Shown: positions 39,729 through 63,880 of the stretch, in pieces | How positions within the stretch are numbered: the first letter of the stretch is position 1 | How the letters are laid out: every line of letters starts with the position of its first letter | Origin: an uncultured Pseudomonadota bacterium | GTDB taxonomy: Bacteria; Oederibacteriota; Muellerivitia; Muellerivitales; Muellerivitaceae | Length of the DNA: 64,000 bases | Assembly (NCBI GenBank): GCA_963836235.1 | Contig: CAWIIP010000004.1 | Location: 608,001 to 672,000 of the forward strand | Reading direction: 5' to 3' | The notes under the pieces: generated by a model | The model's input: the letters and a program-made list of their open reading frames with translations, nothing else | The model's database searches: none | What the model was told of the DNA's origin: nothing | Made by a program: the position numbers and the translations under genes

Positions 39729-39880
39729 ATCGTTTTGGCGGTTTCCAAAATTACACCTGCCGATTTTGGCTGACACGGATAGGGTTATTGGCCAGTTTCC
39801 ATAGATGCACTACCTATCGGGGTAAGTCAAAGTGGGTTATGTGTATTTTGTTTTTTATATTAGACTTTTAAGGAGCTTCG

Positions 39881-41194: not shown

Positions 41195-41288
41195 CGGGCA
41201 TTATGGTTGGGTTAGATCGGATCGACGATTCTTTAAAGCATGGGATAGAATGGCCAAGCCGCATTTGCGCCTTAAGGATTATCGATAA

Positions 41289-43273: not shown

Positions 43274-43293
43274 ACCCCTTTCAGGAAAAACCC

Positions 43294-44571: not shown

Positions 44572-45869
44572 CAAGCCTCCCGATCCGGCAGACGATTCCC
44601 CGGCATATTCTTGTTTTCGAGGCTTACACCGACGCCAATATCGGCTCCGGGGCCTTAGTGGAGAATACGGTCAACATCTTAAAAGGGAAGTACCCGAATT
44701 CCGAAATCAAAATCATGGCCCATTATCCGGCGGCGTTTAATTATGAAAACATTGAATCCATTCCGGATGTATTTGAATACCCCTTCTTAAAACCCCGTTG
44801 GATACAGGTCATTTGGCTTTTTAAAACCATGCTTTGGTTGCTTCTGGCTTATCTTCAAGCCTTGATTTTTAAATCTAAATCCTTTCTCTTGTTCAGAGAA
44901 AAGGCCCGGCCATTCCAATGGGCGGATCTGGCGGTGAGCGTTGGGGCGGAGAGACTTAACGACAAATTCGTCAAAGGACTTTTTTTTTCCGCCTTAAGCC
45001 TCGGGCTCCTGAAAGTCTTGGGAAAGAAGGTCGTTTTTTTTCCGTCCACTATCGGCCCATTCCTCTACAAGCCGACGCGCTGGCTTTCCGGGGCCGTGCT
45101 GAAACGGTTGGACCTGGTCTATACTCGGGACCGTCAGTCCACCCAAACCTGCCTGGACAAGCTTAAACTGGACCCTTCCCGGGTCGTAGAAACGGCTGAC
45201 GTGGCCGTTCTTCAATCGCAGGTTGACGCGGATATATCATGGGAACTTTTGCAGTCTTTTCAGGAAAAACAATTGTCGTCAGGAACCCCGTTGGTTGGAA
45301 TCAGCGCCATGGAATGGACTTACCGTTCCAACAAAGTGGAAACTCAATACAGTAATTATGAATCCTATATTCGGGAAATGGCACAATTGGCCGACACCCT
45401 GGTGGAGAAATACGGCGTCAAAATTGTATTGTTTTCCACTAATTACCCCATCCATGGCTGTCGGGAGGATGATGTCGCCGTCTCCCGCAAGATCCGTGAC
45501 AAAATGGCCCGCCCGGATTCGGCCATCGTGATCGACCGTTTGACCACCCCGTCCCAATTCAAAGGCATGTTGGCCTGCTCCCAGGTGAATATTGTCACTC
45601 GGATGCACGCTTGTATTCTTTCCACTGGGGCTGGAATTCCGACTCTTTCCGTCAACTATCTTTTCAAGTTGAAAGAATATATGGAGTCCCTTGGTCTTGG
45701 TGAATTTTCCATCGACATCGAAGAATTTAATGCAGAGGATATGTTGGTGGCTTTCGACAAGATGTGGAAATCCAGAGAGGATTGGAGCCGGAAAATCCGT
45801 GCTGTCATTGAAAATAAAAAAAAATCCCTGACAAAAGACATGGAACGGATGGACGATTTCATCCGATAA
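44568..45869 (+). CDS. Polysaccharide pyruvyltransferase (WcaK/AmsJ-like)
   Basis: NIGSGAL, STIGPF, YTRD, ADVA, TRMHACI and YLFK. Confidence 0.88.
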   Translation: MTSLPIRQTIPRHILVFEAYTDANIGSGALVENTVNILKGKYPNSEIKIMAHYPAAFNYENIESIPDVFEYPFLKPRWIQVIWLFKTMLWLLLAYLQALIFKSKSFLLFREKARPFQWADLAVSVGAERLNDKFVKGLFFSALSLGLLKVLGKKVVFFPSTIGPFLYKPTRWLSGAVLKRLDLVYTRDRQSTQTCLDKLKLDPSRVVETADVAVLQSQVDADISWELLQSFQEKQLSSGTPLVGISAMEWTYRSNKVETQYSNYESYIREMAQLADTLVEKYGVKIVLFSTNYPIHGCREDDVAVSRKIRDKMARPDSAIVIDRLTTPSQFKGMLACSQVNIVTRMHACILSTGAGIPTLSVNYLFKLKEYMESLGLGEFSIDIEEFNAEDMLVAFDKMWKSREDWSRKIRAVIENKKKSLTKDMERMDDFIR

Positions 45870-46021
45870 AGGCTTAGAACTCATTTCTGGTGTTGCTGAT
45901 CTGTAACTTTTGATAATTAAAATTTCTCTTGAATCAATTTGATTACCCCTTTCTTTCCGGTTAAAACATAACGGATTTGCTTTAACACTGAAAAACGACG
46001 AATCTTTGAAAAGACGGAAAA

Positions 46022-47131
46022 ATGAAAATCGCGCATATTGTTTTAAAAACCATTCCGTTTGGCGGGGGTATCGAAAAATATATTGATGAAATAGGGCCTC
46101 GCCTGGTGGCGAAGGGCCACGAGATAGTTGTTTACACGATGCGACATTATGGGAATCCTCCCGTTTCTTATAAAGGGATGAAAATAAAAACCGTTCGTGC
46201 TTTGGCTTCTAAAACAGCCGAGAAAGTGACTTCTTCTTTTTTGGCCACACTTGATGTCTGCCTCAATGAAAAGCCCGATTTGGTTCATTTTCATTCCTTC
46301 ACCCAGCAAACGACATTCCTGCCAAGGTGGGTTGGTATTCCGGTATTGGTTCAGGGGCATGGGTTGGAATGGAAAAGGTCACGTTGGAACTTGGCAGGAA
46401 AATGGTTTTTAAAATTTAGTGAATGGAGCATGGTCCATTCGGCGGACCGCTTGACCGTTGTTTCGAAGGTGCAACAAAAATACCTAAAGGAAAGATACGG
46501 GCGTGAGAGCGTGTATATCCCCACGGGGATTAATCCACCAAATCGTTTGGAACCCAAAGAAATAACCTCTCTGTGGGGGCTTAAAGGCAGGGATTATTTC
46601 CTAACGGCGGCAAGACTGGTGCCGGAGAAGGGCATTCATACCTTGATAGAAGCCTTTAATGGACTCGAAACAAGTTTTAAGTTAGTCATCGCGGGAGACG
46701 CCGGTCATGAAAAGGAATATCTCGAAAAGCTGAAGACCTTGGCCCACTGTAACCCCAGTATTATTTTTACCGGATACGTAACCGGCAAACCTTACGTCGA
46801 ATTGATGTCCAACGCCTACGCCTTTGTCCTGGCTTCCGACCTAGAGGGACTTCCTACCGTCCTGTTGGAGGCCCTGAGTTACGGGAATTGTTGCCTGGCC
46901 AGTGATATTCCGGAAAATCGGGAAGCACTAGGAGCAAAGGGAATAACTTTCCAAAGTGGTTCAGTTGAGGATTTGCGTAATACCTTGAATGATTTGGCTA
47001 AGGATACGCAAAAAGCTCAGAGCTTGCGTTCAACCGCTGCCGATGGATTGTTAGAAGGGTTTCATTGGGACAAAATCGCAGATCAATTCAACGATCTTTA
47101 CGCCCAAATGGCCAAAGATTCAGGACGTTAG
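46022..47131 (+). CDS. Glycosyltransferase family 4
   Basis: GGIE, HGLEWKR..W, ARLVPEKG and EGLP.VLLEA.SYG. Confidence 0.92.
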   Translation: MKIAHIVLKTIPFGGGIEKYIDEIGPRLVAKGHEIVVYTMRHYGNPPVSYKGMKIKTVRALASKTAEKVTSSFLATLDVCLNEKPDLVHFHSFTQQTTFLPRWVGIPVLVQGHGLEWKRSRWNLAGKWFLKFSEWSMVHSADRLTVVSKVQQKYLKERYGRESVYIPTGINPPNRLEPKEITSLWGLKGRDYFLTAARLVPEKGIHTLIEAFNGLETSFKLVIAGDAGHEKEYLEKLKTLAHCNPSIIFTGYVTGKPYVELMSNAYAFVLASDLEGLPTVLLEALSYGNCCLASDIPENREALGAKGITFQSGSVEDLRNTLNDLAKDTQKAQSLRSTAADGLLEGFHWDKIADQFNDLYAQMAKDSGR

Positions 47132-47134
47132 GCT

Positions 47135-48346
47135 ATGCGAATCCTCTATGTGAATAAATACAATTACTTGAAGGGAGGGGCCGAGCGCGTTCTTATTACC
47201 GAAATGGATATGATGAAATCCCACGGTCATGATATTGCGGTTTTCGCTTCCCGTCATCCAAACAACATGCCGAGTGAATTCTCCGGTGAGTTCGTGGAAG
47301 AGGAAAATTACTTCAACGCGGGCCTTGTCCATAAGATCAAGGCTGCTTTTAAAATTGTTTATTCTTTCGAAGCACTTGAGAAATTTGGGCGTGTAATCGA
47401 CGTATTTAAGCCCGACATCATTCACGCCCACAACATCTACGCGCAGTTAAGCACGGGGATTTTAGACGCGGCTAAAAAGAGGGATGTGCCGACGGTACTA
47501 ACCGCTCATGATTATAAGCTGGTTTGTCCCTCCTATATGATGCTGGACCATGGAAAGATATGCGAGAAATGCATGGGTGGCAATTACTATCACTGCTTTA
47601 CCACTGGATGCCACAAGGAAGACCGCGCGGCTTCTGCGGTTTATATGGCGGAAACTTATTTTAACGCCTGGTTCAAGAAATATGACTCGGTGAGGAAATT
47701 TATCTGTCCTAGCCACTTCATGATGTCCAAGATTGCCAATCGGTTCCCTGAAAAACGAATAGTTGTACTTAACAATCCGGTCGATGTTTCCGCCTACATC
47801 CCTTCTTCTAGTGATGAAGGCTACTATCTTTATACCGGGCGTCTGTCGAAGGAAAAAGGAGTCTTTACACTAATTAGGGCTTTTAAGGAAATGGGCCTGC
47901 CTTTGAAAATAGCCGGGACTGGCCCATTGGAAGGGGAATGCCATAAGCTGTCGGAGGGCGTCTCCGGTATCCAAATGATGGGCTATAAGACTGGAAAGGA
48001 ATTGGAAGAACTCTATCGAAGTGCTCATGCCTGTGTGGTGCCCTCCGAATGGTATGAAAACGCCCCAATGTCGGTTATCGAGCCTTTGGCTTATGGAAAA
48101 CCGGTGATCGGCGCACGCATTGGAGGAATTCCTGAACTGATCCAGGAAGAGAAAAGCGGCCTGCTTTTTAAGCCTTTTGAGCCGGAGGATTTGAAAGAAA
48201 AAGTTTTGAAATTGGAACGGTTATCTCGTGAAGACTATGGTGATATGTGCGGGCAGGCGCGAGAATCGGCCAAAACTCAGTTTTCTTTAGAACGACACTA
48301 CGATGATTTGTTAAAGATTTACAGGCAAGTTCTCCAAACTGATTAA
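47135..48346 (+). CDS. Glycosyltransferase family 4
   Basis: GGAE, HDYKLVCP, GRLSKEKG and WYENAPMSVIE. Confidence 0.92.
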   Translation: MRILYVNKYNYLKGGAERVLITEMDMMKSHGHDIAVFASRHPNNMPSEFSGEFVEEENYFNAGLVHKIKAAFKIVYSFEALEKFGRVIDVFKPDIIHAHNIYAQLSTGILDAAKKRDVPTVLTAHDYKLVCPSYMMLDHGKICEKCMGGNYYHCFTTGCHKEDRAASAVYMAETYFNAWFKKYDSVRKFICPSHFMMSKIANRFPEKRIVVLNNPVDVSAYIPSSSDEGYYLYTGRLSKEKGVFTLIRAFKEMGLPLKIAGTGPLEGECHKLSEGVSGIQMMGYKTGKELEELYRSAHACVVPSEWYENAPMSVIEPLAYGKPVIGARIGGIPELIQEEKSGLLFKPFEPEDLKEKVLKLERLSREDYGDMCGQARESAKTQFSLERHYDDLLKIYRQVLQTD

Positions 48347-52542: not shown

Positions 52543-55152
52543 ATGCCACGCATTCGAATCCATCAAGGGACTTTTTTATCCGCACTTTTCTCCCGAAAAC
52601 GATTCCGTTTGGATTGGGTGGCCTGGCCGCTTTTGGCCTGCGGCGTTCTTCTTTTCACTGAACCCGTCCAATCAGCCGTATCTTTATGGCAGTCTCTGCC
52701 GTTGATCACGCAGTCGAGCCTGAGCGCGGGGAATAGTGGTGGGGAAGGCTGCCAGGTGATCCAAAATTTCGCGATCGACACCACGGGCCAATTCCTCATG
52801 ATGGGAACCGATGTGGGTGGGATATTTCGAAGTATTGATGGGGGGGTCAGCTGGCAGCCCGCCGATACGGGATTTACCCCCCGGGGAGCCTGCGCTTTTG
52901 CCATTGATCCCAACAATTCCAACCGGGTGCTGGCGGTGGGGGACAACTCCGCCGCCCAGCCCTGGAACGGCCTCTGGCTCTCTACCGACCAGGCTTCTTC
53001 CTGGACACCGGTTCAGGAAGAAAACTTCCAGGGTTCGGGAACCTATCATGATTCAGCCGCTTTTGACGCCTCCAGCGTGACGGTGTCGGGTGGAGTGACC
53101 TTCAGCGCCGTGGCCTATTGGGTGAATTACTCGGACGGGGGTGGTGGACTGTGGAAATCCACTAACGGCGGCAATAGCTGGAGCAAGATCCAAACCGCCT
53201 ATTCGGATGGTATCGTCAAAGTCAACCCTTCCAGCGGGGCAGTGTACGTGGCCACGGCCAACGGCTTCTATGTCGGCACCCCCGGGGGATCGAGCTTTAC
53301 TCAAGTCGTTACCGGTCCGGTGCTGGGATTGGATGTCATCGCCACCCAGCCGAATAACGTCTACATCAACGAAGCTAACGGTGTCTATGTTTCCACGAAT
53401 TCAGGGCAAAGCTTCACCGAAATGGGCAACACCGGACTGCCTACCAGCGCTTCTCCGGGATTACGTAACCTCAAGGTTAGCCCGGTAAATCCGAACAATA
53501 TGCTCATCGACGAGGATATGGGGACCTATACCTCCCAAAATTATTACTATTCCTCCAATGGTGGTAACAACTGGTCGGCTTGCGCGCTTAACTCTGCCCA
53601 AAGCTTTGTCCCACTCAATACCCGGGAATGGCTCTTTGTTTGGAGCCCTACCAACGCCAACCAGGCCTGGACTTGTGGAGGGGATTTCATCAGCCAAACA
53701 ACCAATGGAGGAGCTAATTTCGCCTGGTCCAGCAATGGGTACAACGACTTTACCTGCACGGGTATTTTTAACTTCAATACCCAAAATCCCAACCTGCTTT
53801 TGGTCACCAGCCAGGACTACAACTCGGCCTTTACCGGGGCGGTTACCAACAGCGCAGTCACATGGGAATATTTGAATGTTTCCGGGCTAGGATGGGGAGG
53901 ATTCAATTACGGGGGTTACGCATTGAGTTCCACGGTGATGGTGGCCGGTAACTCGGTGGCTTGGGGGGCGCCCGCTACCCTGATGGTTTCCACCAATGGG
54001 GGGAGTAGCTTCACCAGCACAGGATTGGTGGGCAACAATACCCAGACGGCTTGTGGGGACCCGGTTAGTGCCACGGTGGCTTTTTGGGACAATTACCGCA
54101 CTATCGATGGAGGAAGCACCTGGCAGGCGATGACCAATTGCGGGGGTGTTTTTACCTATGATTCGAACCCCGCAGGGGCTCATGAGCTATATGGGGCTAA
54201 TGGTTCCATGGTGGTGAAATCCATAGATCATGGGGCTACCTGGACCAACGTGGTGACGGTATCGGGAACGGTAGCGGACTTGGCCTATGATTGGAGCGAC
54301 AACCGGCTCTATATCGTTTCAGGAAGCTCGTTGTTGGAATACAACGGGACATCTACGACGAACCTCTCGGGAGTGCTGGCGGCTGACAACGAGGGGAACC
54401 AGAGTGTAGTCTCGGTGGCGGTGGACCCGGTAAATCCCACCATTGTTTATGCGGCCTGGAACGGTGGAAGTTATATGTCAAACCAGGCTATTCGCTATTC
54501 GGTGAACGCGGGAGCGACCTGGAGCACGCTGACCAAACAGCCGGGCGACACGGGGATGGATGGAGGCAGAGAGTCGGCCTGTGTGAGGGTCAACCCGTTG
54601 ACCCGCTACCTTTATTCCACCGGGAGCTGTTTTGGGGTCTGGAAATACCCGCCCCCGGTTTCCGGGTCGCCGACTCCCAGCGCTACACCAACACCCACCA
54701 ACTTAGGTGGTTTTACCTCTACACTCACACCGACGAAAACATCAACCATTACCTCTACTCCGACCCAAACCTTTACAGCTACTTCAACCATTACACCAAC
54801 GCCTACCAATTTATACGGTTATACTTCCACGCCGACACCCAATCCGGTGCTTGTTTCCGTGGGCCCCGTGGGTGTCCCCATCGTTTTTCCCAACCCGATA
54901 ACGAGTTCGGGCCAACCGACCCAAGCTCAAATTTATTTTAAAAACAGCGCTCATTACGGCCGCCTAGAAATATTTACCGTAAACTTTCGAAAGGTGGAAG
55001 AAGTTTATATTGGGGATGTCAACCCGGGAACCATAACAGTGTCTTTATCCCTGGCCGATAGCGGAGGGATATCTTTAGGGAATGGCCTGTATTATCTTGT
55101 CGCCAGGGATTCCGCGGGGCAGGCGATAGGGAAGATGTTGATTCTGCGCTGA
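52543..55152 (+). CDS. Secreted GH74-like beta-propeller with a short Thr/Pro linker and a T9SS-like CTD
   Basis: The propeller domain is identical to that of 22386-25427; the signal peptide and CTD differ (FPNP...LGNGLYYL...KMLILR). Confidence 0.8.
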   Translation: MPRIRIHQGTFLSALFSRKRFRLDWVAWPLLACGVLLFTEPVQSAVSLWQSLPLITQSSLSAGNSGGEGCQVIQNFAIDTTGQFLMMGTDVGGIFRSIDGGVSWQPADTGFTPRGACAFAIDPNNSNRVLAVGDNSAAQPWNGLWLSTDQASSWTPVQEENFQGSGTYHDSAAFDASSVTVSGGVTFSAVAYWVNYSDGGGGLWKSTNGGNSWSKIQTAYSDGIVKVNPSSGAVYVATANGFYVGTPGGSSFTQVVTGPVLGLDVIATQPNNVYINEANGVYVSTNSGQSFTEMGNTGLPTSASPGLRNLKVSPVNPNNMLIDEDMGTYTSQNYYYSSNGGNNWSACALNSAQSFVPLNTREWLFVWSPTNANQAWTCGGDFISQTTNGGANFAWSSNGYNDFTCTGIFNFNTQNPNLLLVTSQDYNSAFTGAVTNSAVTWEYLNVSGLGWGGFNYGGYALSSTVMVAGNSVAWGAPATLMVSTNGGSSFTSTGLVGNNTQTACGDPVSATVAFWDNYRTIDGGSTWQAMTNCGGVFTYDSNPAGAHELYGANGSMVVKSIDHGATWTNVVTVSGTVADLAYDWSDNRLYIVSGSSLLEYNGTSTTNLSGVLAADNEGNQSVVSVAVDPVNPTIVYAAWNGGSYMSNQAIRYSVNAGATWSTLTKQPGDTGMDGGRESACVRVNPLTRYLYSTGSCFGVWKYPPPVSGSPTPSATPTPTNLGGFTSTLTPTKTSTITSTPTQTFTATSTITPTPTNLYGYTSTPTPNPVLVSVGPVGVPIVFPNPITSSGQPTQAQIYFKNSAHYGRLEIFTVNFRKVEEVYIGDVNPGTITVSLSLADSGGISLGNGLYYLVARDSAGQAIGKMLILR
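52675..54735 (+). repeat. 2,061-bp direct repeat, copy 2
   Basis: Matches 22518-24578. Confidence 0.93.
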
Positions 55153-55204
55153 TAGCCTAGTTCGGACAATAGTTTTTGAAATAAATTGAAGGGACCCCTT
55201 CAAT

Positions 55205-55450
55205 TTAAGGAAGAACACGAAAGAAGCGAGAATTGACGACGTTGTATAAATCCCCAATGGTAGGACTTTTCAAGATGTCTTCGCCTTCAATGGAGACGCC
55301 ATACTCCTGATCGACCATGGTGATGATGGATAAAGCCGTCAGCGAATCCCAACCACCGATTTCATCAAGACTGGTTTGCAAGGTCGCGTTTTTAACGTTG
55401 GTTCCGTCGAATTGAGCCAGGATGTTTTTAATGAAAAGTTCGGTATCCAC
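55205..55450 (-). CDS. Acyl carrier protein
   Basis: 81 aa, acidic, with a GWDSL phosphopantetheine site and a TIGDL C-terminal helix. Confidence 0.9.
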   Translation of the reverse strand: MDTELFIKNILAQFDGTNVKNATLQTSLDEIGGWDSLTALSIITMVDQEYGVSIEGEDILKSPTIGDLYNVVNSRFFRVLP

Positions 55451-55845
55451 TTTCTCACCTCAAAAAGAGCCGGTTAATTTGGAATCTTTGCCAAAATTCT
55501 AAAGATGGACTCCACGCCTGCGGTTTTCCCCGGCGGGTAAAAATTAATATAACCTAATAAACACCAAAGATCGCCATGTATGGGAAAAACCCTATCAAGA
55601 ATTAGCAAGACTTGATCTTTATAATGACTTTGGTAAAAAATGTAAACCAAAGAGTTATCCGCTTGTCCAAAAGGTCATTGGCAATAATGGGCTTGATCAA
55701 AGCCCCCTGTGTGGAATGGTTGACCTGGAAATATTTCAGCCGCCACCGAACGCTTTTATTTTGGAAAATAAGTTCACAGTGGGCGGGGGTTAAAAAATCT
55801 TGTGTCATATGACTTTTAAAGGACCAAAAAAAACGGGGGCAGGCC

Positions 55846-57444
55846 ATGCGCGATGACAGAGAAAATCACGGGGAAATAAGTGAAAAAAATAAAGAACTTT
55901 GGGAAAACTACAATAAGACGGATGAGGATATCCCGCACGAAACATTACATGGGATGTTTTCCAGGCAGGCAAAAAGGACTCCCGATAAAGTTGCCGTGAT
56001 AAATGAAGGAGAAACTATAACCTTCATCGAATTAGACAAAAGATCCAACCAGGTTGCGAGGTATTTGAAGAATCGTGGAATTGGCAGGCATGGTTATGTG
56101 GGAATTCTGGTTGGGAGGCGCATCGGGACCATTGTAAACATTATGGGCGCTTTGAAAGCGGGATCGGCCTATGTGCCGATCGAGCCCGATTATCCAATCG
56201 ACCGGAGAGATTTCATATTGAGCGATAGTGGATGCCATTGTTTGCTAGAACCTGAGTTTTACGAAGCGAACCATTTGAAAGAATATGAATATTCGGAGAT
56301 TACCCAAAACGAATATCCTGAGGATGTGGCCTACGTCATTTATACATCCGGAAGCACCGGTAGGCCTAAAGGGGTCGTAATTAAACACGACGCGGTGTGC
56401 AATACGATCATCGATCTCAATCAAAAATACAAAGTGGGCGAAAAAGACCGGATGATTGGGCTGTCTTCCATGTGTTTCGATTTATCGGTTTACGATATAT
56501 TCGGGTCATTGGCGAGCGGAGCCACCTTGGTTCAAATCCCCAATCTCCTGGATATCACTCGCGTTCAAAAAGTTGTCGAAAATGGGGAAATAACGGTATG
56601 GAACTCGGTCCCGGCCATCATGGAGCTGTTGATTGAGACCAATGGGAAAAAGACGAGAGACATCAATTATTGGGAAGCGCCTCCTGATAGCGGTAGGGTG
56701 ATTAAATATAAAATGAACGAAAATATGAGACTGGTTATGATGAGCGGCGACTGGATTCCATTGAGCCTGCCAGACAAAGTCAAAGCTGAGTTTCCAATCG
56801 CGGAAGTCATCAGTTTAGGTGGGGCGACCGAAGCATCCATCTGGTCCATCTATTTTCCGATTGCGGAAGTTCGGAAAGAATGGAAAAGCATCCCTTATGG
56901 AATTCCTTTGGCGAACCAAAAATTTTATGTTCTGAACGAAGCGATGGAGTTGAGCCCTTCAGGCGAGATGGGAGAATTGTATATCGGGGGAGTTGGAGTA
57001 GCGGAAGGCTATCTTAATTCCGAAGAAAAGACCAGGAACGCTTTTATGGTTCATAAGGAATATGGTAAGTTATATCGGACGGGAGATTACGGAGTTTTGC
57101 GCTCTGAAGGATATATTGAGTTTCTAGGACGAAAAGACAGCCAAGTCAAAATCAGGGGCCACCGGATAGAGCTTGGGGAAATCGAGAACGTTCTTAATCA
57201 GAAAGAGGGCGTCAAAAACTCAATTGTTGCTGACCGGGTGGACCCCACGGGCCGTAAATACCTGGTAGCTTATGTTGTGCAAGAGGGGAAATTAGACAAG
57301 GAAGAATTCAGCGGCTATCTGAGCAAATCATTACCCGAATATATGGTTCCGACATTTTATGTGAAAGTGGATCAAATTCCGCTTTCGTCGAATGGAAAAG
57401 TGGACAGAAAAGCTTTGCCGGATATAGAGGTTTCGCCGGAGTAA
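55846..57444 (+). CDS. Stand-alone NRPS adenylation domain, predicted to activate cysteine
   Basis: Core motifs YTSGSTGRPKG, FDLSVYD, SLGGATEASIWS, YRTGD, GRKD.QVKIRG.RIE and NGKVDR. Specificity residues read manually as DLYNMSLIWK. There are no C, Cy or T domains. Confidence 0.88.
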   Translation: MRDDRENHGEISEKNKELWENYNKTDEDIPHETLHGMFSRQAKRTPDKVAVINEGETITFIELDKRSNQVARYLKNRGIGRHGYVGILVGRRIGTIVNIMGALKAGSAYVPIEPDYPIDRRDFILSDSGCHCLLEPEFYEANHLKEYEYSEITQNEYPEDVAYVIYTSGSTGRPKGVVIKHDAVCNTIIDLNQKYKVGEKDRMIGLSSMCFDLSVYDIFGSLASGATLVQIPNLLDITRVQKVVENGEITVWNSVPAIMELLIETNGKKTRDINYWEAPPDSGRVIKYKMNENMRLVMMSGDWIPLSLPDKVKAEFPIAEVISLGGATEASIWSIYFPIAEVRKEWKSIPYGIPLANQKFYVLNEAMELSPSGEMGELYIGGVGVAEGYLNSEEKTRNAFMVHKEYGKLYRTGDYGVLRSEGYIEFLGRKDSQVKIRGHRIELGEIENVLNQKEGVKNSIVADRVDPTGRKYLVAYVVQEGKLDKEEFSGYLSKSLPEYMVPTFYVKVDQIPLSSNGKVDRKALPDIEVSPE

Positions 57445-57615
57445 GCCGAAGGAACGGCTTTGCTTTTCGCGTTCCCGAAATTCAGGCATTGAATATAAAA
57501 TGATCATCGAGTCTGACGCCTGTCAAAGCGGTGCTGGGTTGGGCGAAGAGGGTCATTGGGAATAGGTTTAATAAAGGAATGGTCTTAGTAAGTGCCTCAT
57601 CGTCAAGGGAATGAA

Positions 57616-58596
57616 ATGGAAAAAAACGGAAAATATTTCTGGTCGCCCTCGGTTCGATGGAAAAAAACCGATAACGAAATTCGAATAGAGATCTTTTCTT
57701 ATTCGGGATTTGTGAGTGATTTATTCCCCGACTTTTATTTTTTAACCCAAAACGGAATAATGATTGAGGAATTAATCAGCAAGTATTCTTACGTCGGTAA
57801 AAATAAATTTACCCTTTTTTTAAAGGATTTGATAAAGAAGAAAATCCTCGTAAAAGGTGTTTTGACACCCCAAGAAATATTTTATCCTCAAAGTTACCTT
57901 TTTAATAAAGATGGCGCGAAAAAGGGTCGTCCCGAGCCGTATAATTCGGTTGAAAAACAGCCCGGCGGGGAACGCGGTTTTGAAAACGAAAAAAAAATTA
58001 TTCTGAAACACAATCATGAATTCCCGGACATTATCAGCCAACGCAGAACTTGTAGAACTTTTGATCAAAATCGTGTTGTGGACGAAAATGCTTTTTCGAA
58101 TCTTCTAGCCGTTTTTAGCCAAGTCAAAAATGGCGAAAATATCCGGTATTATTACGCGAGTTCCGGTAGTTCTTATCCTATTGATGTGTATGTTTACGTC
58201 AAAAAGGACCGGGTCGAGAATGTTGCCGGAGGTTTGTATGATTATAAACCTGCCGATAACAGCCTGAATTTAGTGAATGACACGTTTGAGATTCCCAAAA
58301 ACGCGCATTATTTCACCAATCAAAATATTTATCTTGGATCAGCCTTCTCGATTTTCTTTATTTTCAACGCCGAAGCGACCATGCCGAAATATGGCGGAAT
58401 CGGATATTTTTACGGATTGATAGAAACCGGAATCATGGTGAGCACGATGACATGTATTGCCGAAGCGAACGGGATTGGAATATGTTCTATTGGCGACATG
58501 AATTTCAAAAAGATAGAAAAATATTTCAATTTGAATGAAAAGCAGGTTCATATCCATACGGTTGAAGCGGGTTTGAAGGAAAAAGAGAATAAATAA
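57616..58596 (+). CDS. SagB/ThcOx-type FMN-dependent dehydrogenase (nitroreductase fold, azoline oxidase-like)
   Basis: RRTCRTF, YASSGSSYPIDVY, GLYDY.P, KYG and ETG...GIGICSIG. Confidence 0.85.
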   Translation: MEKNGKYFWSPSVRWKKTDNEIRIEIFSYSGFVSDLFPDFYFLTQNGIMIEELISKYSYVGKNKFTLFLKDLIKKKILVKGVLTPQEIFYPQSYLFNKDGAKKGRPEPYNSVEKQPGGERGFENEKKIILKHNHEFPDIISQRRTCRTFDQNRVVDENAFSNLLAVFSQVKNGENIRYYYASSGSSYPIDVYVYVKKDRVENVAGGLYDYKPADNSLNLVNDTFEIPKNAHYFTNQNIYLGSAFSIFFIFNAEATMPKYGGIGYFYGLIETGIMVSTMTCIAEANGIGICSIGDMNFKKIEKYFNLNEKQVHIHTVEAGLKEKENK

Positions 58597-58825
58597 GACG
58601 GTTGGAGGCGCCTTCCCGCTATAGGGAATTTCACGCTGCAATGAATGGACATCCAACTGGTTCAAAAGCCAAACGCTTATTTGCCGCGAGGTTAATCGAA
58701 CTGGTTTAGTTTTTTCATCTTAAAGGAGTTCGTGCCAACGCGGGTTTCGCCAATTTTGCGCCAACCTAAATGAGGGTTCTTGTCTTCTGCGCGAAGCGGT
58801 TTTTCTCGTGCACAGAAAGGGTAAA

Positions 58826-59590
58826 ATGTTCCAAAGGTTTGTTCTTTTTTTAAAGTATGTTTTAAATATTCCCCTGCGCCCCCAATCCCGCGCGAGGAAG
58901 ATATGTCTTCTTCTGCGCGCGATACCGAAGACCCTTTACTTTAATTTCAAATATTTCGATTTCAAGAACGCCATCCGGTTTCCGGTTTGGATTTCCCACC
59001 GGGTCCACCTAATGCACATGGGAGGAACCGTGGTCATTGATGCGCCGGTCCAATTCGGAATGGTCCGGATCGGGTTCGCCGAGAACAATTTGTCCAATGT
59101 CGAATTTGACAGGAATGTCTGGGATGTTTGGGGAAAGGTCGTTTTCAAGGGCCGGCTGGTCATGGGCCTTGGCAACAAGATAACGGTCCCGCTCCAGGAA
59201 GCCATCCTTACTTTCGGTTCAAATAATCTGATCAACGTTAACAACCAGTTTTGTTGTGCCAAATCCATCACTTTCGGCGACTATTTGCGCGTAGGATGGG
59301 AAAATATATTTATGGACACGGCTTACCACAACATCAAATCCAAAGGAAAAATATTGAATCCCCCCCGGCCCATCCTCGTTGGAAATCATGTTTGGATCAC
59401 GACCCGTTGCGGAATTTTCCAGGGAACCGAATTAGCGGATGAGTCTATCGTCGCCTATGGCAGCCTCTTATCCTGGAAATATACTAAACCCAAATCCATA
59501 ATTTCTGGCTATCCCGGCCGGGTTGTTCTCGAAGGGGTAGAACATGATGAGCTTCCGATGGAGTATTTCCAAACCCATCTTGTTGAATGA
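58826..59590 (+). CDS. Left-handed beta-helix (hexapeptide) acyltransferase
   Basis: ITFGD, MDTAYH, PILVGNHVWI, SIVAYGS and GYPGRV. Confidence 0.8.
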   Translation: MFQRFVLFLKYVLNIPLRPQSRARKICLLLRAIPKTLYFNFKYFDFKNAIRFPVWISHRVHLMHMGGTVVIDAPVQFGMVRIGFAENNLSNVEFDRNVWDVWGKVVFKGRLVMGLGNKITVPLQEAILTFGSNNLINVNNQFCCAKSITFGDYLRVGWENIFMDTAYHNIKSKGKILNPPRPILVGNHVWITTRCGIFQGTELADESIVAYGSLLSWKYTKPKSIISGYPGRVVLEGVEHDELPMEYFQTHLVE

Positions 59591-59939
59591 CCCGATCATT
59601 TGTCGCGGTGGAGATGAGTGGCGATTGAAAAGAGGGCTAAGCCACGAACCATATTTGAGTATAAAAAATGAAAATGGCTATTTCATAAATAAATTATGAT
59701 TCAATTTGGGAAAGCTGAAACAAGTATAACAAAAGAGTTAGAAACCAGAATAACAACGATGAATTTGCCCCTCCTAAGCGAAAATTAAACTATTGAGCTG
59801 AAACGACAGAAACAAAAATCATTTTTAGTTTTTCGGTTTCCTTGTCCTAATTTTATTACTGTGATAACCTATCGGTTCTCGATTAACCTAAAAGTAACTA
59901 TGGTTAAACAGTAAAGGAACCCTGACTTTTAAGTCGTTT

Positions 59940-62060
59940 ATGAAACAAAATCAGATTTTTTTTAGGACTTTTTGCACCAAAGACATTCGCTCCTTTTCAG
60001 TGGCAGTTGCCCTGTTGTGCTTGTTTTTTTTTAGCCCCTATAAATCCTTAGCTCAAGATTCACCAACTGATACTCCAACGGATACGGCTACCGACACAGC
60101 GACACCTACTCCCATCTTCACTGACACTCCAACTGACAGCCCAACTTTCACTACCACGCTCACTACTACAAACACTCCCATCTTCACCGACACTCCAACC
60201 GACAGCCCAACTTTTACTACTACGTTCACTACTACAAACACTCCCATTTTCACCGACACGCCAACCGAGAGCCCAACTTTCACTACCACGTCTACTGCTA
60301 CTAACACTCCAATCTTCACCGATACTGCTTCTTCTACCCCGAGCCAGACATCGACTAATACCTTTGTCAACACAGCGACCTTAACACCCAGCTCAACCGC
60401 TATCAATACTCCGACTAATACTCCGGTTAATACCGGTACTCCGACGCAAACACCTACGAGGACCAGAACGTCGACCCCTTCCGCTACCTCGACGAAATCA
60501 CCAACTAGTACTCGCACCGGCACTCCGACCCACACCGGTACCCCGACTCAAACGGGGACACCCACGGGAACCTTCACCAAAACGCCCACGAGTACTATTA
60601 CCCTTACAGAAACTCAGACCCCAACATCCACAGTTACTAATTCACCGTCGAATACCCCGGCAAATACGGCTACTACGACAGCCACACCCACGAATAGCGG
60701 AACTCCTACTCCAAGTTCCACCCCCACGAATAGCGCGACCGCTTCCGATACTTCCACTACGACGGATACACCGACTGATAGCGGAACGCCAACCCCGAGT
60801 GGAACTCCTACTAATAGCGCGACAGCTTCCCCTACGTTTACGCCGACTTTTTCGGCTACAACGACACCAACCTCAACGGTCAGCGATACTCCGACCAATA
60901 CGACAACAAACACAACTACTAACACACCTACGGCTACTCAGACACCCATTTCGGGCGGGAATCTTTCTATTATTAATAACCTGACACAACCGGTTACCTT
61001 GACGAACTTTGGTATAAACAATTTAACTGTTATTTTCCCAACTTGCGCGTTCACTGCTGGACAATTGCCAGTGACGATCACGGTTAGTCAATTTAACGTT
61101 AGCGCGGCACCGGCAACTCAAAACGTGAATCTTGCTCAATTTCTTCCGTCGTCGGTTTTTCTCATAAACACGGGCGGTGCTGAACCAAGTTGTTACGTCT
61201 CCCTTACTTTTCCTTATAACCCTTCTGAATTAGGGAGTTCACCTACTTCAAATTTGGAGGTCGTTTATTTTAATGGATCGGCATGGATTAGTGTTCCCGG
61301 CCCTGTTATAAATACCGTTAACGATACGGCGATGGTAAGCGTTAATGCTTCTCTTTCCACTTGGTGGGCAGTGGCCGTATCTGTTGTGGCTACCAATACG
61401 CCTACGGCTACAGCTACAAGCACCATTACGGACACATTTACACCAACCAGTTCTCCAACAAATACAACTACTTTCACGCCCACAAGTACTTTCTCGAATA
61501 CACCTACGGCTACAGTTACCAGCACGGTTACCGATACTCCGACAGCTAGCGATTCACCAACCCCAACAGACACTTTCATGTATTCTCCTACTAATACTGC
61601 CACAAGCACTGTTACCGATACTCCGACTTCTACCAATACATCTACTAGTTCTGCGACACTCACCAGTACTCCCACTAGTACCGTAACGCTTTCAGCGACA
61701 CCGACTATATCCTCTACCAGCACGGCCACTTTAACTCGTACAACCACTGAAACGGTTACGCCGACTCCCATCCTTACGCCCAATATCGTTTATCTTAGTT
61801 CCAACACAGTTAATTCTATTAGCGGTCCTCCTCTCAACATCCAATTTAGTACAACTAACGGCGTCCCAACCGGGATCACCATCCACGGTTCTTCCGGTCG
61901 CATTATTCGTCACTTGCCCATTCTCACAGGTACCTCCAACGTTAATTGGGATGGCAAGGATGATAGTGGCTCGCCTGTGTCTACCGGTATTTACCTAATT
62001 GCAGTTCATGAAGCGAACGGTAAGCCTGTCTTCCGGAAAGTGGCGGCATTGAAAGAATGA
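59940..62060 (+). CDS. Secreted mucin-like Thr/Pro-rich protein with a central globular domain and a C-terminal FlgD-Ig/T9SS-like CTD
   Basis: Signal peptide (SLA-QD); two long TPT tracts; C-terminal GRIIRHL...[14 protein letters not shown]. Confidence 0.8.
60105..60325 (+). repeat. ~3.5 tandem 66-bp coding repeats with the same unit as 30381-30720, in opposite orientation
   Basis: [17 protein letters not shown] units. Confidence 0.8.
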
Positions 62061-63880
62061 AGATTCGTTTTTGTTTTTTCCTTTCCTTTTTTGGCTTCCT
62101 GGCCCCCATTTGGGGTCAATCGTCTTTGACCTCGGGAGCGGATTTCCTGCTCATGACTACCGGCGCAAGGCCGGATGCCATGGGACAGGCTTTTAGCGCC
62201 GTTGCGGATGACATCAACACGCTCTCATTCAATCCGGCGGGGTTGGCCAACATCCGTTTGCCGGAAATCGGCTATGGACATGAGTCGTTTTTAGCCGATA
62301 TTGGCTACGATTTTCTGGGGGCCGCTATTCCGACCGGAAATTTGGGTGTTTTAGGACTAGGATATTTGGCGATGGGGACGGCACCGTTCAACAGCACCAG
62401 CAATCCCGAGGCTCCATCGGTTTCGGTGCAGGATACGGCCTTGATTGGGGCATGGGGAAAATCTTTTTCAGACCTCCATTTGGGCGCGGCGGTTAAATAT
62501 ATCAATGAGAAGGTAGCCACCCTTCAAGGAACTGGTTTTGCTTTTGACTTCGGCGCCCGTTACCGACTCCTTCCTCAGTTTACCCTGGCGGGAAGTGTCT
62601 TAAACATCGGTCCTGGGATTAAGTTTGCCAGTGTTGAACCACTGCCCTTAGTAGTGAACGGCGGCCTGGCTTGGACCGCCCTGCAAAATTCCACCCACAG
62701 CCTTACCCTGGCAACGGACACTTCCCACGTAGCCACGGAAGGTATCCAACGGTATAGTTTTGGAGCCGAGTATTGGTACAAAAATATGTTTGCCATTCGG
62801 GCCGGTTACCTGACTAATTCCCAGGTTGAAGGCTTTTCCGCGGGAGCTGGCGTAAGGTTCTCATTCTTCCAGCTTGATTACGCTTTTGAACCCTACAACA
62901 ATCTTGGGTCGGTTCAACGCCTCTCTGGCCTCTTCCAATGGGATGGGCCCTGGGTTTCAGGAGGGGAGCCGAACGCCCCCAAATATGTGACCGTCCACCA
63001 AACTTACGAGGCATTGGAAATCCGTTGGGATAAGGCCCAGGGGCCGGTCCAATCTTATGAGGTTCTGATCCAGCCGCTGGATGGAGGGGATTTGATTGTT
63101 TCGCCCTCAGTCTCAAATCCCGCTTTTGATTTCAAGGACTACTCCCCGAATATTCTTTACCGTATCTCCGTGCGGTCCATAGGAATTGGAGGTGGCCGCA
63201 GCTTTCCTTCCCGAGAAGTATTGATTCGGACTGGAAGTAAAGAGGCCGTCCTTAAGACCCAGTATCAGGCTGAAGTTGGAAACAAGGTTAAGGAATCAGC
63301 GGCCAAAGGGCTTTATGGAAATGTCGATTCAATCGGGTTAAGGCTTACTTGGGATTCCTCGAAAGAGGGAGGGGTCATCGGCTATAACATTTATCGTCAG
63401 TCGCCCTCGGGCCAAGTGGAAAAGGTGAGTTTGGCCCCAAAACAAGGAAATAAAGTTTGGCTAACGGGAACCGCTGAATTCGCGGGTTGGGAATGGATCG
63501 TTACCGCCGTTCACAAGAGTGGAAACGAGAAAACGCTTGGAACTTTTCTTTGGTACCCCACTCCGGATGAAATCGAAAAACTTTCGGTAACTTCTTCTCG
63601 TCATTTGAGGGCTAGCCCCCAACCCGATCGGCAGGTTTTCCTGGTTTGGGACGGTGATCCGGATGCCGCCCAATATACCCTTCTTTACAGTTTGGCGGCG
63701 GATGGGGTTTATGAAGTTTATAAGGAAATGGAAAAAACAGAAACGAATGCCCTCTTAGATATACCGGGCAATAAAGACGTCTATTACTTTATTGTGGTTC
63801 CGAAGAAGTCCAATGGTGATTGGTCTGGTTCAACTCAGGAAGCCAAAGTGACATTATACAAGGACGCCCCTGCGGAATAA
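62057..63880 (+). CDS. PorV/PorQ-family outer-membrane barrel fused to fibronectin type III-like domains
   Basis: GADFL...GAR..AMG.AF.AVADD...FNPAGL, AIRAGY and LDYAF. FN3-like motifs follow (LTWD....GYNIYR). ATGA overlap with the upstream gene. Confidence 0.85.

What the first reader, a model, noticed from the sequence alone, without database searches (positions are those of the whole stretch)
55205..59590. Dissociated ACP + Cys-adenylation domain + azoline oxidase + acyltransferase beside a glycan locus: candidate cysteinyl/thiazole tailoring of a surface polymer
The A domain has a Cys-type code (DLYNMSLIWK) like thiazole-forming NRPS modules but stands alone with no Cy or T domain. A free WDSL-type ACP is divergently encoded, and a SagB-type oxidase and an LbH acyltransferase follow. 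There is no YcaO, precursor peptide, condensation domain or thioesterase. The logic resembles DltA/DltC (adenylate, load carrier, transfer to polymer) but with cysteine and an oxidase, which would be an undescribed sulfur-containing glycan or protein decoration.
Basis: partly seen in the sequence, partly recalled or inferred. Interest (0 to 1): 0.8.

Follow-up and report, generated by a model that had tools for sequence, protein, structure and literature searches.

The report
Minimal cysteine-loading cassette from NRPS parts
A bacterium keeps a compact four-gene set (a free carrier protein, a cysteine-activating enzyme, its partner oxidase taken from a peptide assembly line, and a sugar-type acyltransferase) that probably attaches an oxidised cysteine-derived group to some acceptor by chemistry not yet described.

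Summary
The four ORFs are real and intact: an 81-aa carrier protein, a 532-aa stand-alone adenylation (A) protein with code DLYNMSLIWK, a full-length BmdC-type FMN oxidase, and a left-handed beta-helix (LbH) acyltransferase.

A and oxidase are close homologues of bacillamide BmdB module 2 and BmdC (PDB E 2e-179 and 1.5e-77). In both trees their nearest relatives are the same two Bacillota NRPS clusters. The carrier and the LbH enzyme come from other families, so the cassette is a mosaic.

The 99.4%-complete genome has no condensation/Cy domain, no YcaO, no thioesterase over cut-off, no second NRPS-type A domain, and only an AcpS-size PPTase.

The cassette is not debris:
- All four genes are syntenic and intact in the sister species, with dN/dS of 0.08-0.26.
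- No strong match to oxidase, LbH or carrier in the other relatives searched (39 for the oxidase, 59 for the other two).
- No Cy or PCP remnants flank A.

Among 79 loci with a BmdC-like oxidase, only one (probably that sister species) shares the architecture.

The link to the glycan locus is weak. The locus sits in a ~28-kb block bracketed by a perfect 2,061-bp repeat and is not beside the cassette in the sister species.

Function is inferred, not shown. I rate it a new variant of carrier-protein tailoring, of moderate to high interest.

The parts
55205..55450 (-). Free 81-aa acyl carrier protein with phosphopantetheine serine in GGWDSL, divergent from the A gene
   Evidence: Pfam PP-binding E 1.9e-10. 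Only 4 proteins were found by word search in 5.8 billion, at 74-99% identity, with the WDSLTALS block invariant. The nearest ESM-Atlas clusters are free ACPs, commonest in Bacteroidota. There is no significant similarity to the PCPs of the nearest NRPS relatives. Identity to G001 is 79%, dN/dS 0.26.
55594..55670 (.). Conserved non-coding block in the ACP-A divergent spacer; a candidate shared promoter or operator
   Evidence: Identity between G000 and G001 is 80-97% in 30-nt windows here, against 43-67% in the adjacent windows 55496-55598. No Rfam match. No ORF with a start codon is shared by both species.
55846..57444 (+). Stand-alone NRPS-type adenylation protein (532 aa), Cys-type pocket, no Cy, C or PCP attached
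   Evidence: TIGR01733 372.5 bits against 317.4. BmdB module-2 A domain E 2.2e-179, query residues 10-525. Code DLYNMSLIWK is identical to that of its nearest Cy-A-PCP relatives L010 and L011. Only the A region of those NRPSs aligns to window 54901-60100. Identity to G001 is 82%, dN/dS 0.085.
57592..58596 (+). BmdC-type FMN-dependent oxidase with RRE-like N-terminal domain. The likely start is the Met at 57616, as in database protein P0005 (326 aa).
   Evidence: BmdC (7ly7_B) E 1.5e-77, query 15-329 against chain 8-324. TIGR03605 96.3 bits against 78.4. The counterparts of BmdC Arg149, Asn236 and Gly294 are invariant in 25 of 25 family members, and Tyr260 in 24 of 25; all are present here as R155, N243, G301 and Y267 (residues from PMC8795117). 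Identity to G001 is 78%, dN/dS 0.13.
58808..59590 (+). Left-handed beta-helix acyltransferase of the polysaccharide O-acetyltransferase kind, with clade-specific N- and C-terminal extensions. The likely start is the Met at 58826.
   Evidence: Weak NCBIfam hits to LacA, WbbJ and WcaF. 22 of 32 homologues carry PF00132 or PF14602. His174 and Trp196 are invariant in a 25-row alignment. AF2 model pLDDT 89.7. The Foldseek top hits are NeuO 3jqy and OatWY 2wlc, probability 1.0. Identity to G001 is 83%, dN/dS 0.078.

Best explanation
This is a working, horizontally assembled four-gene cassette that runs a minimal carrier-protein pathway on cysteine.

1. Inferred: the genome's only PPTase, of AcpS size, primes the free ACP.
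2. Inferred from an intact A domain whose pocket is identical to that of its thiazole-module relatives: the A protein makes Cys-AMP and thioesterifies the ACP.
3. Inferred, and the weakest step: the BmdC-type FMN oxidase, which in its home system acts only on carrier-tethered substrate, dehydrogenates the tethered cysteine-derived unit. With no Cy or YcaO in the genome there are two options. Either an azoline or thiazolidine forms by another route (for example after acylation of the tethered Cys by the LbH enzyme, or by condensation of its aminothiol with a carbonyl compound). Or the enzyme desaturates the C-alpha/C-beta bond of an (N-acyl)cysteinyl thioester directly.
4. Inferred from fold kinship with NeuO and OatWY and from the lack of any TE or C domain: the LbH acyltransferase takes the acyl group off the phosphopantetheine arm, which acyl-CoA and acyl-ACP share. 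It transfers the group to a hydroxyl or amine of an acceptor, most plausibly a cell-surface glycan or glycoconjugate, and regenerates holo-ACP.

What is shown: the gene content, its origin, its integrity and its co-inheritance. What is not shown: substrate, product and acceptor.
For: Integrity and constraint:
- All four genes are intact in G000 and in same-genus G001, in the order BNR-ACP-A-Ox-LbH-FlgD_ig-PorV/Q.
- Amino-acid identity is 78-83% and dS is 0.45-1.1.
- dN/dS is 0.085 (A), 0.13 (Ox), 0.078 (LbH) and 0.26 (ACP). The flanking genes give 0.12 and 0.076.

Co-inheritance:
- Oxidase found in 2 of 41 relatives. The LbH has a strong match in 2 of 61, plus 3 weak hits at 26-30% identity. 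The ACP has a strong match in 2 of 61, plus 17 weak hits at 24-28% identity.
- A further 5,129-bp contig length is listed both for an LbH at 93% identity and for an ACP at 85% identity.
- Family relatives keep the FlgD_ig-CTD protein plus PorV/Q pair without the cassette (6 of 6 regions fetched; G041 also has the BNR genes).

Origin:
- A and Ox match BmdB and BmdC.
- Both trees place them next to the same two Bacillota NRPS loci, L010 and L011. There the A domain sits as A-PCP-C-A-PCP, or between Condensation and PP-binding hits in an NRPS that ends in a reductase domain.

Clean excision:
- No Cy or PCP remnants flank the A gene.

Catalytic residues kept:
- Code DLYNMSLIWK.
- FMN-binding and Tyr residues of the oxidase.
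- The family-invariant His174 of the LbH enzyme.

No alternative partners in the genome:
- 0 Condensation, 0 YcaO, no TE over cut-off, one NRPS-type A domain, one 137-aa-frame PPTase.

BmdC needs PCP delivery of its substrate (PMC8795117, passages read).
Against: - No experiment and no expression data exist.
- The gaps A-Ox (about 170 bp) and Ox-LbH (about 230 bp) are long for an operon, and the ACP gene is on the other strand. Promoter and terminator scans are not above chance.
- The LbH enzyme's nearest solved relatives all use acetyl-CoA, not acyl-ACP.
- None of the 4 metagenome loci with LbH relatives holds an ACP or an AMP-ligase.
- The ACP is unrelated to the PCP that this A domain evolved with, so loading is not guaranteed.
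- The known substrate of the oxidase family (an azoline) has no evident source.
- The distribution is very narrow: one genus plus a few short metagenome contigs. Conservation therefore spans limited evolutionary time.
Confidence: 0.5

Rival explanations
1. The cassette makes a small diffusible molecule rather than a polymer decoration. Possible products are an N-acyl-cysteine-derived thiol or a 2-substituted thiazole-4-carboxylate. Here the LbH enzyme acylates the tethered cysteine with an acyl-CoA, and release is by hydrolysis or by an unlinked enzyme.
For: - A and Ox descend from small-molecule NRPS clusters.
- The cassette is not linked to a glycan locus in the sister species.
- 2 of 79 oxidase loci (L081, L082) end an NRPS cluster with an LbH-like gene.
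Against: - There is no TE over cut-off, no C domain and no transporter in the cassette.
- The LbH clade is nearest to polymer O-acetyltransferases. Its relatives sit in glycan loci in 3 of 4 cases.
- The L081 similarity is generic: 29% identity over 106 residues.
Confidence: 0.2
2. The four genes do not form one pathway. The LbH gene is an ordinary acetyl-CoA-dependent glycan O-acetyltransferase. ACP, A and Ox form a separate orphan trio, or just A plus ACP form a cysteinyl-carrier donor for an enzyme encoded elsewhere.
For: - The nearest LbH structures are acetyl-CoA enzymes.
- LbH relatives occur without an ACP or a ligase.
- The intergenic gap before the LbH gene is long.
- The LbH enzyme and the A/Ox pair have different evolutionary sources.
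Against: - The LbH gene is as genus-restricted as the other three: a strong match in 2 of 61 relatives.
- It keeps its position in both species.
- Its clade (four homologues at 58-93% identity) carries N- and C-terminal extensions that the ~220-aa glycan-locus relatives lack.
- The same 5,129-bp contig length is listed for a close LbH and a close ACP.
Confidence: 0.15
3. The genes are decaying leftovers of a once larger NRPS cluster and have no present function.
For: The A protein is exactly the middle of a Cy-A-PCP module. The genome has no partner domains.
Against: - dN/dS is 0.08-0.26 at dS of about 0.45-1.1.
- There are no frameshifts or stops in either species.
- No pseudogene remnants flank the A gene.
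- All checked catalytic residues are retained.
Confidence: 0.05

Closest known systems
Bacillamide synthetase BmdB module 2 (Cy-A-PCP) with trans-acting oxidase BmdC (PDB 7LY4-7LY7; PMC8795117, passages read)
   Same: The A protein aligns over 516 residues with the A2 domain of BmdB (E 2.2e-179). The oxidase aligns over the whole of BmdC, including the RRE-like N-domain (E 1.5e-77). The Cys-type code is kept, as are the FMN-binding residues and Tyr260.
   Different: There is no Cy domain, no fused PCP, no C-terminal C domain and no module 1. The carrier is an unrelated free ACP, and an LbH acyltransferase has been added. The BmdB:BmdC salt-bridge residues (R1512, R1513 / D225, D231) are N, G / F, A here. 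However, the two oxidase positions are mostly Cys and Ala across the family (17 of 25 each), so this says little about docking.
DltA/DltC D-alanylation of teichoic acids
   Same: The logic is the same: a stand-alone adenylating enzyme loads an amino acid on a small free carrier protein, and the amino acid is then transferred to a cell-envelope polymer.
   Different: This is not a member. The DltA models score 256-273 bits against cut-offs of 476-560, and there is no DltC model hit. The transfer enzyme is an LbH, not the MBOAT DltB with DltD (these roles are recalled). The amino acid is Cys, not D-Ala, and an oxidase is present.
Polysialic-acid O-acetyltransferases NeuO (3jqy) and OatWY (2wlc); WbbJ, WcaF and LacA-type LbH O-acetyltransferases
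   Same: These are the best structural matches of the LbH model (Foldseek E 1.5e-07 to 4.6e-07, probability 1.0), with weak NCBIfam matches as well. The family-invariant His is present. Relatives lie in glycan loci.
   Different: Identity is only 14-17%. The cassette clade has roughly 20-residue N- and C-terminal extensions. The known enzymes use acetyl-CoA, whereas the donor proposed here is an acyl-ACP.
SagBCD / McbBCD-type azole RiPP (TOMM) systems
   Same: The oxidase falls in the SagB/ThcOx family and carries an RRE-like domain (PMC8795117).
   Different: There is no YcaO cyclodehydratase in the genome and no conserved precursor ORF. McbC and ThcOx are only distant matches (E 4e-05 and 3e-03).
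AMP-ligase plus ACP cassettes in polysaccharide loci: the exosortase-A-associated ligase TIGR03098 with its neighbouring ACP, and the Vibrio cholerae O1 tetronate genes (both gene contexts are recalled, not checked here)
   Same: An adenylating enzyme and a free ACP supply an unusual acyl substituent for a surface polysaccharide.
   Different: The A protein scores 218 bits against a cut-off of 592 for TIGR03098, so it is not a member. It is an NRPS amino-acid A domain. Those systems have no FMN oxidase. One literature search for the tetronate genes found nothing.
Aminoacylated 'linking sugars' of type IX secretion cargo (Wbp/Vim pathway; PMC7468200, abstract and passages read)
   Same: An amino acid (Ser or Gly) is amide-linked to a sugar that anchors secreted proteins. 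The cassette here lies between BNR-type secreted proteins and a FlgD_ig-CTD protein plus PorV/PorQ-family pair.
   Different: The enzymes are entirely different (VimA and VimE). Nothing beyond neighbourhood connects the cassette to secretion.

Membership tests
NRPS amino-acid adenylation domain (TIGR01733) | Score over the curated cut-off, with AMP-binding plus AMP-binding_C domains | tested here: met
   372.5 bits against 317.4. PF00501 E 2.4e-78 and PF13193 E 4e-09.
NRPS amino-acid adenylation domain (TIGR01733) | Cys-type 10-residue specificity code | tested here: met
   DLYNMSLIWK is identical in 10 of 64 aligned A domains, including L010 and L011. DLYNLSLIWK occurs in 29 of 64. The positions are taken from recalled Stachelhaus numbering. 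Substrate was not assayed.
Thiazole-forming NRPS module (Cy-A-PCP) | Cy/condensation domain upstream and PCP fused downstream of the A domain | tested here: not met
   The ORF holds the A domain only. No remnants flank it. There are 0 PF00668 matches in G000 (99.4% complete) and in G001 (80% complete). tblastn with two Cy domains gave a best E of 0.34.
BmdC / SagB-ThcOx FMN-dependent azoline oxidase | Family model over cut-off and full-length match to a solved member | tested here: met
   TIGR03605 96.3 bits against 78.4. BmdC E 1.5e-77 over residues 15-329.
BmdC / SagB-ThcOx FMN-dependent azoline oxidase | FMN-contacting Arg, Asn and Gly, and the active-site Tyr | tested here: met
   R155, N243, G301 and Y267 align with BmdC Arg149, Asn236, Gly294 and Tyr260 (PMC8795117). 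They are conserved in 25, 25, 25 and 24 of 25 family members.
BmdC / SagB-ThcOx FMN-dependent azoline oxidase | A cyclodehydratase (Cy domain or YcaO) that supplies the azoline substrate | tested here: not met
   0 Condensation and 0 YcaO matches in the genome.
Left-handed beta-helix (hexapeptide) acyltransferase | Hexapeptide-repeat sequence signature | tested here: inconclusive
   No Pfam hit on the protein itself at E <= 0.01. 22 of 32 homologues carry PF00132 or PF14602. NCBIfam hits are weak, at 16-33 bits.
Left-handed beta-helix (hexapeptide) acyltransferase | LbH fold | tested here: met
   AF2 model with mean pLDDT 89.7 and pTM 0.87, with short beta-strands repeating through most of the chain. 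35 PDB matches at E <= 0.001; among those listed most are LbH acyltransferases, with some gamma-carbonic anhydrases, and NeuO and OatWY rank highest.
Left-handed beta-helix (hexapeptide) acyltransferase | Acyl donor (CoA against ACP) and trimeric active site | not testable with these tools
   This needs enzyme assays.
Dlt D-alanylation system | DltA and DltC equivalog models | tested here: not met
   TIGR01734 256.2 bits against 559.85. No DltC model is among the ACP's hits.
Acyl carrier protein (PP-binding) | PF00550 over cut-off with the conserved Ser | tested here: met
   41.3 bits against 20.8. Ser36 in WDSL is invariant in 4 of 4 homologues. Phosphopantetheinylation was not tested.

The most novel reading that the evidence does not exclude
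A BmdC-type azoline oxidase, cut loose from any Cy or YcaO cyclodehydratase, works with a lone Cys-adenylating enzyme, a free ACP and a glycan-type LbH acyltransferase. Together they build a sulfur heterocycle or an oxidised cysteine unit by a cyclodehydratase-independent route, and they install it on a cell-surface glycan or protein anchor. This would be both a new substrate or route for this oxidase family and a previously unseen sulfur-containing envelope decoration.
Probability: 0.15. Interest if true: 0.85.

Novelty: new variant of a known kind. Interest (0 to 1): 0.6.

Why it matters
Azoline oxidases of the BmdC/SagB kind are known only downstream of a cyclodehydratase. Here one is conserved under selection in genomes that have none, beside the A domain it co-evolved with. 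That points either to an unrecognised way of making the heterocycle or to a new reaction for the enzyme family.

The cassette also shows how assembly-line parts can be excised cleanly and re-wired with a housekeeping-style carrier and a glycan-type transferase into a four-gene tailoring pathway. That is useful both for annotation (genome miners would call it a broken NRPS) and for engineering.

If the acceptor is a surface glycan, this would be the first cysteine-derived decoration of that kind. All four proteins are small, so the question can be tested directly in vitro.

Tried and rejected
- Exhaustive HMMER search with the A protein. The best 150 hits were all 3,200-7,900-aa multi-module NRPSs, ranked by summed score. 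This said nothing about stand-alone forms.
- Complex prediction with the LbH trimer plus the ACP: no answer, score 0.00. It is not evidence either way.
- Expression: no RNA holder is listed. Five DNA runs hold part of the stretch (best share 0.33).
- Promoter and terminator scan: 9 and 4 sites, no more than in shuffles.
- Rfam on 55100-60000: no match.
- PADLOC on the four proteins: no match, so a defence-system reading was dropped.
- Small precursor-like ORF in the ACP-A spacer. One frame is open across the conserved block in both species but has no start codon in G000, and the ORF ends differ. It is treated as non-coding.
- The 19-residue loop in the A domain, at the site where embedded Ox domains are inserted in other NRPSs, looked like a scar of an excised Ox. 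It is shared with L010, L011 and L020, which have separate oxidases, so the idea was rejected.
- Loss of the BmdB:BmdC salt-bridge residues as a sign of lost docking. Rejected, because the two oxidase positions are Cys and Ala in most of the family.
- Earlier findings of this scan: nothing to show.
- Literature searches. Searches on SagB + adenylation + carrier protein + acyltransferase + polysaccharide, on cysteinyl + exopolysaccharide + adenylation domain + thiazole, and on stand-alone adenylation + ACP + polysaccharide + aminoacyl listed no paper on such a cassette. I saw search listings only. The tetronate/perosamine/ACP search found 0 papers.
- GC3 of the cassette genes is 0.41-0.57, against a genome mean of 0.60 (sd 0.11). 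Only the oxidase is near the 5th percentile, so composition alone does not prove transfer.

Full report
**What is there**

The window is G000:C4:608001-672000, from a 3.97-Mb genome in five contigs that is 99.38% complete. The finding's coordinates hold four ORFs.

- **Carrier protein.** On the minus strand at 55205-55450 lies an 81-aa carrier protein. It has Pfam PP-binding at E 1.9e-10 and the serine motif GGWDSL.
- **Adenylation protein.** Divergent from it, after a 395-bp spacer, lies a 532-aa adenylation protein at 55846-57444. It scores 372.5 bits on TIGR01733 (cut-off 317.4), with AMP-binding and AMP-binding_C domains.
- **Oxidase.** Next is a 334-aa nitroreductase-fold protein at 57592-58596. 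It scores 96.3 bits on the SagB-family model TIGR03605 (cut-off 78.4). The likely start is the Met at 57616.
- **Acyltransferase.** Last is a 260-aa protein at 58808-59590. It has no Pfam hit at E <= 0.01, and only weak NCBIfam matches to LacA, WbbJ, WcaF and Vat acetyltransferases.

**The A protein and the oxidase are a transplanted pair**

Against solved structures, the A protein's best match is the A domain of bacillamide synthetase BmdB module 2. The match is E 2.2e-179, query 10-525 against chain 437-933 of the Cy-A-PCP construct. The oxidase's best match is the trans-acting oxidase BmdC, over its whole length including the RRE-like N-terminal domain (E 1.5e-77, query 15-329 against chain 8-324).

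The A ORF begins in what is the Cy-A linker of BmdB. It stops seven residues after the A10 lysine motif.

I used the residues named in the BmdC paper (PMC8795117; passages read) and the alignment. The counterparts of the FMN-contacting Arg149, Asn236 and Gly294 and of the active-site Tyr260 are R155, N243, G301 and Y267. In a 25-member family alignment they are kept in 25, 25, 25 and 24 members.

The two salt-bridge pairs of the BmdB:BmdC interface are not kept: the residues are N, G in the A protein and F, A in the oxidase. However, the two oxidase positions are Cys and Ala in 17 of 25 family members each. The salt bridges are therefore a peculiarity of BmdC and say nothing about docking here.

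**Specificity**

On a 64-row alignment of A domains from oxidase-bearing loci, the ten pocket positions read DLYNMSLIWK. The positions follow recalled Stachelhaus numbering.

The same string occurs in 10 of 64 rows, including the sister species and the two nearest NRPS relatives. DLYNLSLIWK occurs in 29 of 64. BmdB A2, which activates Cys in the paper, reads DLYNLSLIWK in the alignment. The pocket is thus unchanged from thiazole-forming modules. Cys activation is the natural prediction but was not assayed.

**Where the pair came from**

A scan of 185,579 species genomes with the oxidase alignment gave 112 relatives. The best 80 were kept as 79 loci, mostly Bacillota.

tblastn of the window's proteins on these loci found an A homologue in 77 of 79. 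Apart from L009, in 75 of the other 76 the open frame around the hit is 654-3,983 aa. In the remaining one (L028) a 538-aa frame lies beside a 3,835-aa NRPS frame.

Where I checked with Pfam:
- L010 has hits in the order A, PP-binding, Condensation, A, PP-binding (1,758 aa).
- In L011 (2,806 aa) the best-matching A domain lies between Condensation and PP-binding hits, with a reductase-type domain at the C-terminus.
- L073 and L075 are A-PCP fusions, with TE genes in both loci and a Condensation gene in L073.
- L081 is C-A-PCP.

Only L009 has a lone A frame (559 aa) together with the ACP and the LbH gene. L009 is 77-83% identical and is probably the same organism as the same-genus genome G001.

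Maximum-likelihood trees of the A domains (64 rows) and of the oxidases (74 rows) both place query + L009 as a 100%-supported pair. In both trees the nearest rows are L010 (a Clostridia isolate) and L011 (a Bacillota MAG). Deeper branches are weakly supported (80% SH-aLRT).

I infer that A and Ox were acquired together from a Bacillota-type Cy-A-PCP plus trans-oxidase cluster.

**The other two genes come from elsewhere**

*Carrier protein*
- The ACP has no significant similarity to the PCPs of L010 and L011.
- A word-based search of 5.8 billion proteins found only four sequences: itself and relatives at 85, 78 and 74% identity.
- Its nearest ESM-Atlas clusters are free ACPs, commonest in Bacteroidota (score 0.95, a lead only).

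*LbH protein*
- It has 32 homologues. Four are close (93, 83, 66 and 58% identity) and share its N- and C-terminal extensions.
- The other 28 are proteins of about 172-285 aa (mostly ~220) at 29-44% identity.
- 22 of the 32 carry hexapeptide Pfam domains.
- His174 and Trp196 are invariant across 25 aligned members.
- An AlphaFold2 model (mean pLDDT 89.7) has the repeated short strands of a beta-helix.
- Its best PDB matches are the polysialic-acid O-acetyltransferases NeuO and OatWY, followed by other acetyl-CoA-dependent LbH enzymes.
- Four metagenome loci hold relatives at 31-39% identity. Three are glycan loci (GT2/Wzy/acyltransferase-3; further hexapeptide transferases; GT4/EpsG) and one is not. 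None has an ACP or an AMP-ligase nearby.

The cassette is therefore a mosaic.

**No missing partners**

The genome has:
- 0 Condensation-domain matches, confirmed by tblastn with the Cy domains of L010 and L011 (best E 0.34).
- 0 YcaO.
- No thioesterase over cut-off.
- Only one A domain over the NRPS cut-off.
- One PPTase match, in a 137-aa frame of AcpS size.

G001 (80% complete) also has 0 Condensation matches. The NRPSs of L010 and L011 align to window 54901-60100 only over the A gene, so no pseudogenised Cy or PCP flanks it.

**It is maintained, and as a unit**

In G001 the order BNR-ACP-A-Ox-LbH-FlgD_ig protein-PorV/Q is the same, and all four genes are intact.

| Gene | Role | dN/dS (Nei-Gojobori) |
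|---|---|---|
| A | cassette | 0.085 |
| Ox | cassette | 0.13 |
| LbH | cassette | 0.078 |
| ACP | cassette | 0.26 |
| BNR | flanking | 0.12 |
| PorV/Q | flanking | 0.076 |

dS across these genes is 0.45-1.4.

Distribution among relatives:
- The oxidase was found in 2 of 41.
- The LbH has a strong match in 2 of 61, plus three hits at 26-30% identity.
- The ACP has a strong match in 2 of 61, plus 17 weak hits at 24-28% identity, which I take to be other ACPs.

Six family relatives keep the FlgD_ig-CTD protein plus PorV/Q pair (6 of 6 regions fetched). One of them, G041, also has two BNR genes, a GT4 gene and an LRR gene upstream. None has the cassette.

The four genes thus behave as one insertion in this genus. 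A contig length of 5,129 bp is listed both for an LbH at 93% identity and for an ACP at 85% identity, which suggests a third carrier.

The ACP-A spacer contains a block (about 55594-55670) that is 80-97% identical between the species, while the adjacent part of the spacer on the ACP side is 43-67% identical. It has no Rfam match and no ORF startable in both species. It is probably a shared regulatory region.

**The glycan locus**

A Wzx/Wzy-type locus with GTs, a pyruvyl transferase, Wza and Wzc lies at 31728-48346. It is 6.9 kb from the ACP gene. In between lie a 248-aa gene, an ankyrin gene, two BNR/sortilin genes and a 100-aa ORF.

The BNR gene next to the cassette (52543-55152) and a paralogue at 22386-25427 share a perfect 2,061-bp repeat: 22518-24578 equals 52675-54735. 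This repeat brackets the ~28-kb block that contains three LRR genes, the glycan locus and a third BNR gene.

In G001 a single BNR gene joins the cassette to PilZ, DUF11, a CLC channel and other non-glycan genes. The Wzy homologue (67% identity) is on another contig there. The adjacency is therefore not conserved. In G000 it may reflect insertion, recombination or even an assembly join.

**Mechanism**

I think the four proteins most likely form a minimal carrier-protein pathway. All steps are inferred.

1. AcpS primes the ACP. A type-II-like carrier fits a genome that has only an AcpS-size PPTase.
2. The A protein loads Cys.
3. The oxidase dehydrogenates the tethered unit. The BmdC paper concludes that it needs PCP delivery of its substrate.
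4. The LbH enzyme removes the acyl group from the phosphopantetheine arm and transfers it to an acceptor. The LbH family suggests a glycan.

The weak point is step 3, because no cyclodehydratase exists to make an azoline. Three options remain open:
- acylation of the tethered Cys by the LbH enzyme, followed by ring closure that oxidation then pulls forward;
- thiazolidine formation with a carbonyl compound;
- direct C-alpha/C-beta desaturation.

The rivals are a small-molecule product, an unrelated LbH gene, and decay. They are weighed in their own sections.

**Comparison and novelty**

The cassette works like Dlt (adenylate, load a carrier, transfer) but fails the Dlt models. It contains members of the NRPS A-domain and BmdC/SagB oxidase families but fails the defining context of both, having no Cy or PCP and no cyclodehydratase. 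It is not a TOMM system.

Adenylating enzyme plus ACP cassettes in polysaccharide loci are a recalled precedent for the logic. The aminoacylated linking sugars of type IX secretion cargo (PMC7468200; abstract and passages read) are a precedent for amino-acid-bearing anchor sugars. The cassette's conserved neighbours (BNR proteins, a FlgD_ig-CTD protein and a PorV/PorQ-family protein) make that a lead, no more.

Three literature searches listed no description of such a cassette (listings only).

I class it as a new variant of a known kind. Its limits are the very narrow distribution and the complete lack of functional or expression data (one search lists no RNA run).

Noticed in passing
window 22518-24578 and 52675-54735: A perfect 2,061-bp direct repeat lies inside two BNR/sortilin paralogues. 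It brackets a ~28-kb block holding three LRR genes, the glycan locus, a 248-aa gene, an ankyrin gene and a third BNR gene. The sister species has a single BNR gene at this place. The cause could be insertion, recombination between paralogues or an assembly join.
   Followed up: partly
window 55594-55670: A non-coding block between the ACP and A genes is 80-97% identical between two species whose coding dS is about 1. One reading frame is open in both but lacks a start codon in G000. There is no Rfam match.
   Followed up: partly
window 59940-63880 and loci L125-L130: A protein ending in a FlgD_ig-like C-terminal domain, followed by a 607-aa PorV/PorQ-family protein, is a conserved gene pair across the family (6 of 6 regions fetched). 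The upstream protein's body is highly variable, and 60-62 kb shows strong negative GC skew.
   Followed up: partly
window 3398-10629: Three ORFs in 61-67% GC sequence (genome average 50.6%) have no Pfam match. They are followed by a 666-aa protein with an autotransporter beta-domain. A DDE transposase lies just upstream at 1648-3015.
   Followed up: no
window 37611-39728: A 705-aa protein inside the glycan locus has only an N-terminal HAD-hydrolase match (residues ~26-223). About 480 C-terminal residues are unassigned.
   Followed up: no
window 25563-31043: Three tandem minus-strand genes encode leucine-rich-repeat proteins in a region of unusually strong GC skew (0.27-0.40).
   Followed up: no
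L075:49-10984 (and L077): A Pseudoramibacter cluster has a Cys-type A-PCP (638 aa), a PPTase, a PCP-X protein, two thioesterases and a BmdC-like oxidase. There is no Pfam Condensation hit in the 10 kb examined. A 430-aa ORF without any Pfam match sits right after the A-PCP gene. This may be another thiazole system with a non-canonical cyclisation partner.
   Followed up: no
L081:15651-16400 (and L082): Ruminococcus NRPS clusters with C-A-PCP, a short oxidase (242 aa) and a TE end with an LbH-like 249-aa gene. It shares 29% identity with the cassette's LbH over 106 residues, which is generic similarity only.
   Followed up: partly
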